Of a stretch of DNA of 64,000 nucleotides, positions 27,701-29,330 are shown one piece after another. The stretch lies in assembly GCF_029227855.1 (NCBI RefSeq), contig NZ_CP074356.1; one strand, written 5' to 3'. Made by a program: the position numbers. This DNA comes from Escherichia coli (lineage in GTDB: Bacteria; Pseudomonadota; Gammaproteobacteria; Enterobacterales; Enterobacteriaceae). Numbering within the stretch: position 1 is the stretch's first letter; the number at the start of each line of letters is the position of its first letter.

Positions 27701-29330
27701 CGGTTGTCCCACCAGACTCACTTCGCCACTGCTGCCGTCATCCAGCCCGGCGAGGATCGCCAGCAAGGTTGACTTACCCGATCCCGACTCACCCACCAGT
27801 GCGATGGTCTCGCCACGTTTGACAACCAGCTCAACTCCGGTGAGGATGGAGAGTTCATGCTCCCCCTGACCGACGGACTTCTTAAGATGATGAACTTCAA
27901 CAATGTTTTCCGCTGGCATTTGCCCTTCCTGTTCCTGGTCCTGTTAACCTTCCGTGCCGCCGCAGCGGACACGTTATTGATTCTGGGTGATAGCCTGAGC
28001 GCCGGGTATCGAATGTCTGCCAGCGCGGCCTGGCCTGCCTTGTTGAATGATAAGTGGCAGAGTAAAACGTCGGTAGTTAATGCCAGCATCAGCGGCGACA
28101 CCTCGCAACAAGGGCTGGCGCGCCTTCCGGCTCTGCTGAAACAGCATCAGCCGCGCTGGGTGCTGGTAGAACTGGGCGGCAATGACGGTTTGCGTGGTTT
28201 TCAGCCACAACAAACCGAGCAAACGCTGCGCCAGATTTTGCAGGATGTCAAAGCCGCCAACGCTGAACCATTGTTAATGCAAATACGTCTGCCTGCAAAC
28301 TATGGTCGCCGTTATAATGAAGCCTTTAGCGCCATTTACCCCAAACTCGCCAAAGAGTTTGATGTTCCGCTGCTGCCCTTTTTTATGGAAGAGGTCTACC
28401 TCAAACCACAATGGATGCAGGATGACGGTATTCATCCCAACCGCGACGCCCAGCCGTTTATTGCCGACTGGATGGCGAAGCAGTTGCAGCCTTTAGTAAA
28501 TCATGACTCATAAAGCAACGGAGATCCTGACAGGTAAAGTTATGCAAAAATCGGTCTTAATTACCGGATGTTCCAGTGGAATTGGCCTGGAAAGCGCGCT
28601 CGAATTAAAACGCCAGGGTTTTCATGTGCTGGCAGGTTGCCGGAAACAGGATGATGTTGAGCGCATGAACAGCATGGGATTTACCGGCGTGTTGATCGAT
28701 CTGGATTCACCAGAAAGTGTTGATCGCGCAGCCGACGAAGTGATCGCCCTGACCGATAATTGTCTGTATGGGATCTTTAACAATGCCGGATTCGGCATGT
28801 ATGGCCCCCTTTCCACCATCAGCCGTGCGCAGATGGAACAGCAGTTTTCTGCCAACTTTTTCGGCGCACACCAGCTCACCATGCGCCTGTTACCCGCGAT
28901 GTTACCGCACGGTGAAGGGCGTATTGTGATGACCTCATCGGTGATGGGATTAATCTCCACGCCGGGTCGCGGCGCTTACGCAGCCAGTAAATATGCGCTG
29001 GAGGCGTGGTCGGATGCGCTGCGCATGGAGCTGCGCCACAGCGGAATTAAAGTTAGCCTGATCGAACCCGGTCCCATTCGTACTCGCTTCACCGACAACG
29101 TCAACCAGACGCAAAGTGATAAACCAGTCGAAAATCCTGGCATCGCCGCCCGCTTTACGTTGGGACCGGAAGCGGTGGTCGACAAAGTGCGCCATGCTTT
29201 TATTAGCGAGAAACCGAAGATGCGCTATCCGGTAACGCTGGTGACCTGGGCGGTAATGGTGCTCAAGCGCCTGCTGCCGGGGCGCGTGATGGACAAAATA
29301 TTGCAGGGGTGAGTTGAAGCGCGCGCTTAA

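What the first reader, a model, noticed from the sequence alone, without database searches (positions are those of the whole stretch)
27857..27919. Divergent ybbA and tesA coding regions overlap at their 5' ends
ybbA (minus) starts at 27919 and tesA (plus) at about 27887, so the two start regions overlap by about 30 nt and their promoters must lie inside each other's coding sequence. This suggests possible transcriptional interference or antisense effects.
Basis: seen in the sequence. Interest (0 to 1): 0.2.

Follow-up and report, generated by a model that had tools for sequence, protein, structure and literature searches.

The report
tesA and ybbA overlap head-to-head
Two E. coli genes that face away from each other, and whose proteins work together in one membrane complex, share their first 30-33 bases and have their promoters inside each other's coding sequence; this is real and conserved, but already described.

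Summary
The window is E. coli chromosome. ybbA (minus strand) can only start at 27919. tesA (plus strand) starts at ATG 27887 (K-12 annotation) or 27890 (RefSeq PGAP), giving a 33- or 30-nt overlap in which the two sets of codons lie exactly opposite each other.

A published 5'-end map puts the tesA transcription start at window 27855, 64 nt inside ybbA. Upstream of it are a perfect -35 (TTGACA, 27819-27824) and a weak -10. The only reported ybbA starts (28074, 28261, 28306) are weak and lie 155-387 nt inside tesA. The two mRNAs are therefore complementary over at least 220 nt.

All 18 Enterobacterales loci examined overlap by 30-75 nt. Synonymous variation is almost absent in the shared codons (p about 1e-6). 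Outside Enterobacterales the two genes are still back-to-back, with a median gap of about 2 nt and often a shared CATG.

The upstream ATG at 27857 sits at +3 of the mapped mRNA and is not conserved. The TTG at 27920, which would remove the overlap, is not conserved either.

All of this is already known: the K-12 annotation, the 2025 YbbAP-TesA structure paper, and ExcludonFinder 2025, which lists tesA-ybbA among 16 divergent excludons. No regulatory effect has been tested. Interest is low.

The parts
27233..27919 (-). ybbA coding sequence. It encodes the ATP-binding subunit of the YbbAP type VII ABC transporter (228 aa).
   Evidence: ORF. RefSeq annotation. Full-length match, identical apart from one substitution at residue 112, to PDB 9GE6/7/8 chain YbbA, beginning MPAENIVEV.
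27887..28513 (+). tesA coding sequence, encoding thioesterase I / protease I / lysophospholipase L1. The K-12 annotation starts at 27887 (208 aa); RefSeq PGAP starts at 27890 (207 aa).
   Evidence: [quoted passage not shown]
27887..27919 (.). Dual-coding stretch of 11 codons in each gene, read in register on opposite strands. tesA MMNFNNVFRWH lies opposite ybbA MPAENIVEVHH, and the ybbA ATG is the reverse complement of the tesA His11 codon CAT.
   Evidence: Sequence. Near-invariant DNA across Enterobacterales. Synonymous variation is depleted.
27887..27964 (+). Coding sequence for the TesA Sec signal peptide (residues 1-26). The mature protein starts at codon 27 (27965, ADTLL...).
   Evidence: PDB chains 1IVN_A and 9GE8_T begin at residue 27.
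27819..27824 (+). tesA promoter -35 hexamer TTGACA (6/6 match to consensus), lying inside ybbA codons 32-34 (V V K).
   Evidence: Read from the sequence relative to the mapped transcription start. Invariant in 15 of 18 aligned Enterobacterales sequences and TCGACA in the other three. The third positions of ybbA codons 32-34 never vary.
27842..27847 (+). tesA promoter -10 hexamer GAGGAT (3/6, with A2 and T6). It has a 17-nt spacer from the -35 and lies 7 nt before the transcription start.
   Evidence: Read from the sequence relative to the mapped start. It is too weak for the consensus scan, which found nothing.
27855..27855 (+). tesA transcription start site, giving a 32-nt 5' UTR to ATG 27887. 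It lies 64 nt inside ybbA.
   Evidence: Kim et al. 2012 Table S1: position 519021(-) in U00096.2, value 45, UTR 32. The 51-nt sequence they give maps exactly to window 27805-27855.
27857..27859 (+). Upstream in-frame ATG, used in 218-aa gene models. It sits at +3 of the mapped mRNA and is the antisense of the ybbA His21 codon.
   Evidence: Absent in L004, L006, L014, L015 and L016.
27920..27922 (+). In-frame TTG (tesA Leu12), used as the start in 197-aa gene models. It would leave a gap of 0 nt and no overlap.
   Evidence: It is replaced by TGG in Citrobacter werkmanii and has no equivalent start codon in Rahnella, Photorhabdus, Providencia, Pectobacterium or Acerihabitans.
27923..27930 (-). 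ybbA Shine-Dalgarno sequence AGGAAGGG, with its AGGA core 7 nt before the ATG. It is encoded on the opposite strand of tesA signal-peptide codons 13-15 (P F L).
   Evidence: Sequence. An AGGA is found before the ybbA ATG in all Enterobacterales loci.
28074..28306 (-). Interval holding the three weak ybbA transcription starts reported so far (28074, about 28261, 28306). All lie inside tesA, giving 5' UTRs of 155, 342 and 387 nt.
   Evidence: Kim 2012, values of 2 reads each. Cappable-seq plus-strand start at 518615 in U00096.2. No dip in synonymous variation is seen at these positions.
24822..27236 (-). ybbP, the permease, downstream of ybbA in the same operon. Its start overlaps the ybbA stop by 4 nt.
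28503..29312 (+). ybbO, downstream of tesA in the same putative operon. It overlaps the end of tesA by 11 nt.
   Evidence: The operon statement is from PMC12646458.

Best explanation
tesA and ybbA form a genuine head-to-head overlapping gene pair.

What is shown directly:
- ybbA starts at 27919.
- tesA most probably starts at ATG 27890 or 27887. The first 10-11 codons of each gene are therefore read from the same DNA on opposite strands.
- There is no intergenic DNA, so the control elements of each gene sit inside the other gene. The tesA promoter (-35 TTGACA, weak -10, transcription start 27855) and its 32-nt leader lie in ybbA codons 12-34.
- The ybbA ribosome-binding site lies in tesA signal-peptide codons 13-15, and the weak ybbA promoters lie 155-387 nt inside tesA.
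- The promoters therefore fire towards each other. The two mRNAs are perfectly complementary over at least 220 nt, a stretch that includes both ribosome-binding sites.

What is inferred:
- RNA polymerases from the two promoters must pass or collide with each other.
- Any duplex between the two 5' regions would mask both start sites or be cut by RNase III.
- The stronger tesA promoter would then tend to dampen ybbAP expression. This is the behaviour of a divergent excludon.

The arrangement is ancient. Across Gamma- and some Betaproteobacteria the two start codons are nearly always within a few bases of each other. In Enterobacterales the tesA start lies 10-11 codons further upstream, which lengthens the signal peptide but leaves mature TesA unchanged.
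For: Gene identities and coordinates.

Start codons:
- ybbA has a single possible start.
- An ATG at tesA codon 1 or 2 is present in all 18 Enterobacterales loci, whereas the TTG at codon 12 and the upstream ATG are not.
- Mature TesA begins at residue 27 in PDB 1IVN and 9GE8, so residues 1-26 are a cleaved signal peptide. Only the ATG start gives that peptide a charged N-terminal region (Arg9).

Dual constraint: synonymous variation is 0/8 in tesA codons 1-11 against 152/180 elsewhere. It is 3/10 in ybbA codons 1-11 and 13/24 in codons 12-35, against 183/191 in the rest of ybbA. Fisher p values run from 1e-7 to 9e-7.

Transcription:
- tesA start at window 27855 with 45 reads; ybbA starts at 28074 and 28306 with 2 reads each (Kim 2012).
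- Cappable-seq start at about 28261.
- tesA-ybbA is listed among 16 divergent excludons of MG1655 (PMC12288877).
- The YbbAP-TesA paper states that the two operons partially overlap (PMC12646458).

Conservation of the adjacency:
- 79 of 80 loci from diverse Proteobacteria have ybbA divergent and adjacent to tesA.
- 36 of 60 non-Enterobacterales loci share a CATG at the junction.
- By a heuristic choice of starts, the median gap is 2 nt, and 47 of 58 loci have 25 nt or less.

Against: - No experiment fixes the tesA start codon. The signal peptide is cleaved, and the start-site profiling and N-terminomics supplements I could search do not list tesA.
- The ybbA transcription starts rest on very few reads. 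The two data sets disagree on position, and no conserved promoter is visible there.
- tesA has only a weak Shine-Dalgarno sequence (GGA, 9 nt upstream).
- Interference, duplex formation and RNase III cleavage have not been measured for this pair.
- TesA and YbbAP form one complex. Mutually exclusive expression, the usual reading of an excludon, would be odd for them.
- Low synonymous variation at the 5' ends of genes can also come from selection on mRNA structure, though rarely this strongly or over 35 codons.
Confidence: 0.8

Rival explanations
1. The architecture is real, but the overlap has no regulatory role. On this view it is a tolerated by-product of start-codon drift in a gene pair kept tightly linked because the products work together. 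Both genes are expressed at low levels, so collisions and RNA duplexes would be too rare to matter.
For: - The size of the overlap varies between lineages: -2, 0, +10, -30, -33, -75 nt. This suggests that adjacency, not the overlap itself, is what is kept.
- The ybbA transcription starts are very weak (2 reads).
- The partner proteins need to be present together.
- The strong sequence conservation in the overlap is fully explained by two proteins, one ribosome-binding site and one promoter sharing the DNA.
Against: - Overlapping transcription is detected in at least half of 58 RNA-seq data sets.
- Near-zero spacing is kept across several orders of Proteobacteria, although divergent pairs normally carry 100-400 nt of control DNA.
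- Only 2 divergent coding overlaps are reported in E. coli, so such arrangements are usually removed.
Confidence: 0.45
2. tesA really starts at the TTG at 27920, giving a 197-aa precursor. The two coding sequences would then abut with a gap of 0 nt instead of overlapping, and the conserved MNFNNVFRWH would be only the antisense shadow of the YbbA N-terminus.
For: - Many automatic gene models use this start, including K. pneumoniae MGH78578 KPN_00472 at 594 nt.
- TTG or GTG is present at this codon in 10 of 11 Enterobacteriaceae loci.
- The conservation of tesA codons 1-11 could in principle come from YbbA alone.
Against: - The codon is TGG in Citrobacter werkmanii and C. youngae. It has no start-codon equivalent in Rahnella, Photorhabdus, Providencia, Pectobacterium or Acerihabitans, whereas an ATG 10-11 codons upstream is universal.
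- The resulting 15-residue signal peptide (MPFLFLVLLTFRAAA) would have no charged N-terminal region.
- No Shine-Dalgarno match precedes it.
- The ybbA His10/His11 codons are always CAT wherever the tesA ATG needs them.
Confidence: 0.07
3. tesA is translated, wholly or partly, from the upstream ATG at 27857, giving a 218-aa precursor and a 63-nt overlap. The mRNA would act as a nearly leaderless transcript, because the mapped 5' end is only 2 nt upstream.
For: - The ATG is in frame and open.
- The mapped transcription start at 27855 puts it at +3.
- 218-220-aa models exist in databases.
- If the true 5' end were A27857, the mRNA would begin with AUG.
Against: - The ATG is absent in Citrobacter sp. 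FP75, isolate RIT691, Rahnella, Photorhabdus caribbeanensis and Pectobacterium.
- Its Shine-Dalgarno-like GGAGAG lies upstream of the transcription start, so it is not in the mRNA.
- From general knowledge, leaderless initiation in E. coli is inefficient unless the AUG is exactly at the 5' end.
- The extra MLPLTDGLLK would add an acidic residue to the signal peptide's N-terminal region.
Confidence: 0.06

Closest known systems
The tesA-ybbA divergent excludon of E. coli MG1655 (ExcludonFinder, NAR 2025, PMC12288877) and the 'partially overlapping operons' noted in the YbbAP-TesA structure paper (PLoS Biol 2025, PMC12646458)
   Same: It is the same locus. The window carries the same genes, the same 30-33-nt overlap and the same promoter sequence as K-12.
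   Different: Nothing differs at the locus itself, apart from strain polymorphisms. This work adds three things: the comparative picture, the evidence on which tesA start is used, and the placement of the published transcription starts on the sequence.
Classical excludons such as Listeria mogR / fli-che, and other divergent pairs with overlapping 5' UTRs
   Same: Neighbouring genes on opposite strands whose transcripts overlap, so that transcription of one can interfere with the other through polymerase collision or RNase III cleavage of the duplex.
   Different: In classical cases a long UTR of one gene covers the other, the genes have opposing functions, and their expression is anticorrelated. 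Here the coding sequences themselves overlap, the products are partners in one complex, and no anticorrelation has been shown.
Back-to-back bidirectional promoters (symmetric -10 elements with divergent transcription starts about 18 bp apart)
   Same: Divergent genes served from one very short control region.
   Different: Here the promoters face each other and are at least 220 nt apart, so the transcripts overlap. They do not diverge from a shared -10.
Same-strand 4-nt ATGA overlaps, which give translational coupling (for example ybbA/ybbP in this window)
   Same: A minimal overlap built on a start codon. The shared CATG seen in Vibrio, Halomonas and other genera is the opposite-strand analogue.
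   Different: In a same-strand overlap, one ribosome on one mRNA is coupled from gene to gene. In a head-to-head CATG the two genes are on different mRNAs, so no such coupling is possible.

Membership tests
Head-to-head (divergent) overlapping protein-coding gene pair | Two coding sequences on opposite strands share nucleotides at their 5' ends | tested here: met
   ybbA 27919..27233 against tesA 27887/27890..28513. Conserved in 18 of 18 Enterobacterales loci.
Head-to-head (divergent) overlapping protein-coding gene pair | Both reading frames encode real proteins | tested here: met
   Both have solved structures: TesA in 1IVN and 9GE8, YbbA in 9GE6-8. TesA has thousands of homologues, and a ybbA homologue lies next to tesA in 79 of 80 loci.
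Head-to-head (divergent) overlapping protein-coding gene pair | The start codons that create the overlap are the ones used in the cell | tested here: inconclusive
   ybbA has only one possible start. For tesA, comparative evidence favours 27890/27887 over 27920 or 27857. No direct initiation-site or precursor N-terminus data were found.
Divergent excludon | Transcripts of neighbouring divergent genes overlap | tested here: met
   Published starts placed on the window are tesA at 27855(+) and ybbA at 28074, 28261 and 28306(-), giving at least 220 nt of overlap. The pair is listed as a divergent excludon in PMC12288877.
Divergent excludon | Expression of the two genes is mutually exclusive or anticorrelated | not testable with these tools
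   No expression data for this pair were accessible. It is biologically questionable, because TesA and YbbAP form a complex.
Divergent excludon | Double-stranded RNA forms and is processed by RNase III | not testable with these tools
   This would need p19 pull-down or RNA-seq of an rnc mutant at this locus. The paper reports p19 overlap for 40% of divergent excludons but names no pairs in the text read.
Sigma-70 promoter (for tesA) | -35 and -10 hexamers 16-18 nt apart, with a mapped transcription start 6-8 nt downstream of the -10 | tested here: met
   TTGACA (6/6) at 27819-27824, a 17-nt spacer, GAGGAT (3/6) at 27842-27847, and the start at 27855. The strict consensus scan found nothing, because the -10 has fewer than 4 matches.
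Sigma-70 promoter (for ybbA) | A recognisable, conserved promoter upstream of a reproducible transcription start | tested here: not met
   There are three different weak starts in two data sets. The scan found no consensus match, and synonymous variation shows no local dip. The ybbA promoter remains undefined.
Sec signal peptide (TesA residues 1-26) | A charged N-terminal region, a hydrophobic core, an AXA cleavage site, and a mature protein that begins after the site | tested here: met
   MMNFNNVFRWH / LPFLFLVLLTF / RAAA|A. Mature chains in the PDB begin at A27. The charged N-terminal region exists only if the ATG start is used.
Back-to-back bidirectional promoter | Divergent transcription starts about 18 bp apart that share a symmetric -10 region | tested here: not met
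   The transcription starts face each other and are at least 220 nt apart.

The most novel reading that the evidence does not exclude
The near-zero head-to-head spacing is kept from Betaproteobacteria to Enterobacterales, and each gene's ribosome-binding site lies within the first 16 or so codons of its partner. This could be a selected reciprocal antisense device. Pairing of the two complementary 5' regions, or polymerase collision between the facing promoters, would tie the output of the periplasmic hydrolase TesA to that of its membrane transporter YbbAP and set their ratio. That would be an excludon-like module acting as a balance between partners instead of as an either/or switch.
Probability: 0.12. 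Interest if true: 0.5.

Novelty: already known. Interest (0 to 1): 0.18.

Why it matters
Head-to-head coding overlaps are the rarest class of gene overlap in E. coli: one survey found 2 among 663 overlapping pairs. This one joins a widely used enzyme to its newly recognised transporter partner. The leaderless form 'TesA is a workhorse of fatty-acid engineering.

There are practical consequences:
- Any edit to the first 35 codons of ybbA also touches the tesA promoter, leader or signal peptide.
- Any edit to the tesA signal-peptide region touches the ybbA start and ribosome-binding site. Clean knock-outs or tags of one gene can therefore silently alter the other.
- Public gene models for tesA disagree on length (197, 207, 208 or 218 aa). 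The comparative evidence here supports the 207/208-aa form.

As biology it is a tidy, conserved example of facing promoters embedded in coding DNA, but it has already been catalogued.

Tried and rejected
- The consensus promoter/terminator scan of 27500-28300 found nothing. The tesA -10 is too weak for its threshold, so the promoter was read by hand from the published transcription start.
- An Rfam scan of 27000-29000 at E <= 1 gave no RNA family.
- The Cappable-seq supplement (PMC4782308) holds only plus-strand K-12 sites in the stored part. It could inform on ybbA but not tesA.
- The supplements of Adams 2021 (PMC7815308) do not mention either gene.
- Thomason 2015 dRNA-seq (PMC4288677) is not held.
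- ExcludonFinder has no stored supplements.
- The supplements of TRAINSPOTTER N-terminomics (PMC13245402) and of tetracycline ribosome profiling (PMC4909307) do not list tesA or ybbA. The tesA start codon therefore remains without direct evidence.
- The K. pneumoniae transcription starts for the orthologues were not in the stored part of Kim 2012.
- The idea that the CATG start is always the functional tesA start outside Enterobacterales was rejected for fluorescent Pseudomonas. There a second ATG 4 codons downstream has a GGAG Shine-Dalgarno and gives a normal signal peptide, so the likely gap is +10 nt.
- I looked for conserved ybbA promoters inside tesA through local dips in synonymous variation and saw none.

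Full report
**What is in the sequence**

The window is E. coli chromosome. Positions 27400-28400 are 100% identical to strain JNEC-KY178, and the region is present at 95% identity or more in 5416 of 5426 complete E. coli genomes.

The ORF list shows ybbA on the minus strand from 27919 to 27233 (228 aa). It also shows an open tesA frame on the plus strand from 27857 to 28513. Within the tesA frame there are four conceivable starts:
- ATG 27857
- ATG 27887
- ATG 27890
- TTG 27920

RefSeq annotates tesA from 27890 in this strain, a 30-nt overlap with ybbA. K-12 MG1655 annotates the 208-aa form, equivalent to 27887 and a 33-nt overlap.

In the shared stretch the two frames are in register on opposite strands. 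The ybbA ATG is the reverse complement of the tesA His11 codon, and tesA MMNFNNVFRWH is read against ybbA MPAENIVEVHH.

**Are these the real start codons?**

ybbA has no alternative. 27919 is the first start codon after a stop. The next in-frame start is a GTG one codon before the Walker A motif, which would delete the N-terminal strands of the ATPase. The construct used for the cryo-EM structures begins MPAENIVEV.

For tesA, public gene models disagree. Versions of 197, 204-210 and 218-220 aa exist, corresponding to the TTG, the ATG pair and the upstream ATG.

I fetched 80 loci encoding TesA relatives from one genome per species. I then located ybbA, the Walker A codon and the GDS codon in each. 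In all 18 Enterobacterales loci an ATG is present at tesA codon 1 and/or 2:
- Salmonella-like sequences keep only the second ATG.
- Photorhabdus keeps only the first.
- The TTG at codon 12 is TGG in Citrobacter werkmanii and C. youngae. It has no start-codon equivalent in Rahnella, Photorhabdus, Providencia, Pectobacterium or Acerihabitans.
- The upstream ATG is missing in five loci.

Mature TesA in PDB entries 1IVN and 9GE8 begins at residue 27. Residues 1-26 are therefore a cleaved signal peptide. Only the ATG start gives it a charged N-terminal region.

The choice of start changes the signal peptide, not the mature enzyme. I found no direct initiation-site data for tesA, so this step rests on comparative inference.

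**Is the overlap constrained?**

A DNA alignment of 18 Enterobacterales sequences shows that 27855-27930 is almost invariant, while the flanking coding DNA varies freely at third codon positions. The table counts degenerate codons that show synonymous variation in 12 Enterobacteriaceae for ybbA and in 9 indel-free sequences for tesA.

| Gene | Codons | What lies opposite | Varying / degenerate | Fisher p vs rest of gene |
|---|---|---|---|---|
| ybbA | 1-11 | tesA coding sequence | 3 / 10 | 3e-7 |
| ybbA | 12-35 | tesA leader and promoter | 13 / 24 | 1e-7 |
| ybbA | 36-228 | nothing known | 183 / 191 | reference |
| tesA | 1-11 | ybbA coding sequence | 0 / 8 | 9e-7 |
| tesA | 19-208 | mostly nothing known | 152 / 180 | reference |

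This is what two proteins, a promoter and a ribosome-binding site sharing the same DNA should produce.

**Where are the promoters?**

Kim et al. 2012 mapped primary 5' ends in MG1655. Their Table S1 gives a tesA start at 519021(-) in U00096.2 with 45 reads and a 32-nt UTR. It gives ybbA starts at 518802(+) and 518570(+) with 2 reads each. The 51-nt upstream sequences they list map to window positions 27855, 28074 and 28306. Two match exactly and the 28074 sequence has one mismatch.

Reading back from 27855 gives:
- a perfect -35 (TTGACA, 27819-27824)
- a 17-nt spacer
- a weak -10 (GAGGAT, 27842-27847)

All of these lie inside ybbA codons 24-34. The -35 is invariant in 15 of 18 aligned Enterobacterales sequences, and the third positions of the ybbA codons that carry it never vary. 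The consensus scan missed this promoter because of the weak -10.

Cappable-seq adds a weak K-12 plus-strand start equivalent to window position 28261 or so. It shows nothing nearer to the ybbA ATG.

The tesA promoter is therefore well supported. The ybbA promoter is not defined. However, the ybbA ATG and its Shine-Dalgarno sequence (AGGAAGGG, 27930-27923) lie inside tesA. Any ybbA promoter must therefore lie inside tesA as well, or beyond it.

The promoters face each other, and the mRNAs are complementary over at least 27855-28074.

The upstream ATG at 27857 is at +3 of the mapped tesA mRNA. Its attractive GGAGAG is thus not transcribed.

**Wider distribution**

ybbA lies divergent and adjacent to tesA in 79 of 80 loci, spanning Gammaproteobacteria and a few Betaproteobacteria.

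Outside Enterobacterales, 36 of 60 loci have the palindrome CATG at the junction, so the two ATGs overlap by 2 nt. In fluorescent Pseudomonas a second ATG with a GGAG Shine-Dalgarno is the likelier start, which gives a gap of +10 nt.

With a simple rule for choosing starts, the median gap outside Enterobacterales is 2 nt. It is 25 nt or less in 47 of 58 loci. All 18 Enterobacterales loci overlap by 30-75 nt.

In many lineages residues 5-6 of the TesA signal peptide are encoded by TTCC-type codons. On the other strand these form the ybbA Shine-Dalgarno sequence.

The embedded, facing control regions are therefore ancestral. The 30-33-nt coding overlap is an Enterobacterales variant of a zero-gap arrangement.

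**How it most likely works**

- Shown: the overlap, the tesA promoter inside ybbA, the ybbA ribosome-binding site inside tesA, and overlapping transcription.
- Inferred: polymerase collision between the facing promoters, and pairing of the complementary 5' regions, which include both ribosome-binding sites. The net effect would be negative coupling, with the stronger tesA promoter dominating.
- Against a simple either/or switch: TesA and YbbAP form one complex (PMC12646458). A neutral, merely tolerated arrangement remains nearly as likely as a regulatory one.

**Comparison with what is known**

- The overlap is in the K-12 annotation.
- The 2025 YbbAP-TesA structure paper states that the tesA-ybbO and ybbA-ybbP operons partially overlap, and that the gene linkage extends to Pseudomonas aeruginosa.
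- ExcludonFinder (2025) lists tesA-ybbA among 16 divergent excludons of MG1655.
- A survey of E. coli found only 2 divergent pairs among 663 overlapping adjacent gene pairs (PMC4161906). The class is therefore rare, but this member is catalogued.
- No Rfam family matches the region.
- The other divergent pairs in the first 50 kb of the window are 145-366 nt apart.

**Verdict**

The functional consequence is untested, and the feature is already known.

This analysis adds three things:
- evidence for which tesA start is used
- the placement of the published transcription starts on the sequence, including the fate of the 27857 ATG
- the finding that the near-zero head-to-head spacing is conserved well beyond the enterobacteria

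Noticed in passing
L020, L023, L026-L028, L032-L036, L039-L042 and others (junction of ybbA and tesA, about locus position 2430-2510): In 36 of 60 non-Enterobacterales loci the two divergent start codons share the palindrome CATG, a 2-nt overlap. 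The TesA signal peptide's residues 5-6 are often TTCC-type codons, which on the other strand form the ybbA Shine-Dalgarno sequence.
   Followed up: partly
L014 (Pectobacterium betavasculorum), about 2500-2650: A 45-nt insertion sits inside the dual-coding stretch and stays open in both frames. It adds 15 residues to the YbbA N-terminus and 15 to the TesA signal peptide, and raises the overlap to 51-78 nt.
   Followed up: partly
window 27857-27922, and proteins P0001-P0120: Public gene models for tesA orthologues use three different starts (197, 204-210 and 218-220 aa). A few are fused to long upstream antisense-ybbA reading frames (286-402 aa), showing that automatic callers handle this overlap inconsistently.
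   Followed up: yes
window 27386 (minus strand): Kim et al. 2012 report a weak internal transcription start (3 reads) inside ybbA, 150 nt upstream of ybbP.
   Followed up: no
window 27233-27236 and 28503-28513: There are two same-strand overlaps: the ybbA stop with the ybbP start (4 nt, ATGA type), and the tesA end with the ybbO start (11 nt).
   Followed up: no
window 27584-27586 (ybbA codon 112): YbbA in this strain has Thr where the K-12 and PDB 9GE6 sequence has Pro (VELTALL against VELPALL).
   Followed up: no
window 18823-24392: Downstream of ybbP lie an RHS element core protein gene with a YbbD-family gene, and two truncated pseudogenes (ylbG and a 96-nt fragment). This is a variable RHS region.
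   Followed up: no
window 36266-50000 and beyond: A type I secretion system (HlyD-family adaptor and permease/ATPase) is followed by a very large frameshifted BapA/SiiE-like adhesin gene (siiEA). No counterpart was seen in the 7-kb K-12 stretch examined, which does not reach this position.
   Followed up: no
L019 (Candidatus Pantoea persica): This is the only locus of the 80 where ybbA next to tesA appears degraded. The match is fragmented, with stops and no Walker A found, as expected for a reduced symbiont genome.
   Followed up: no
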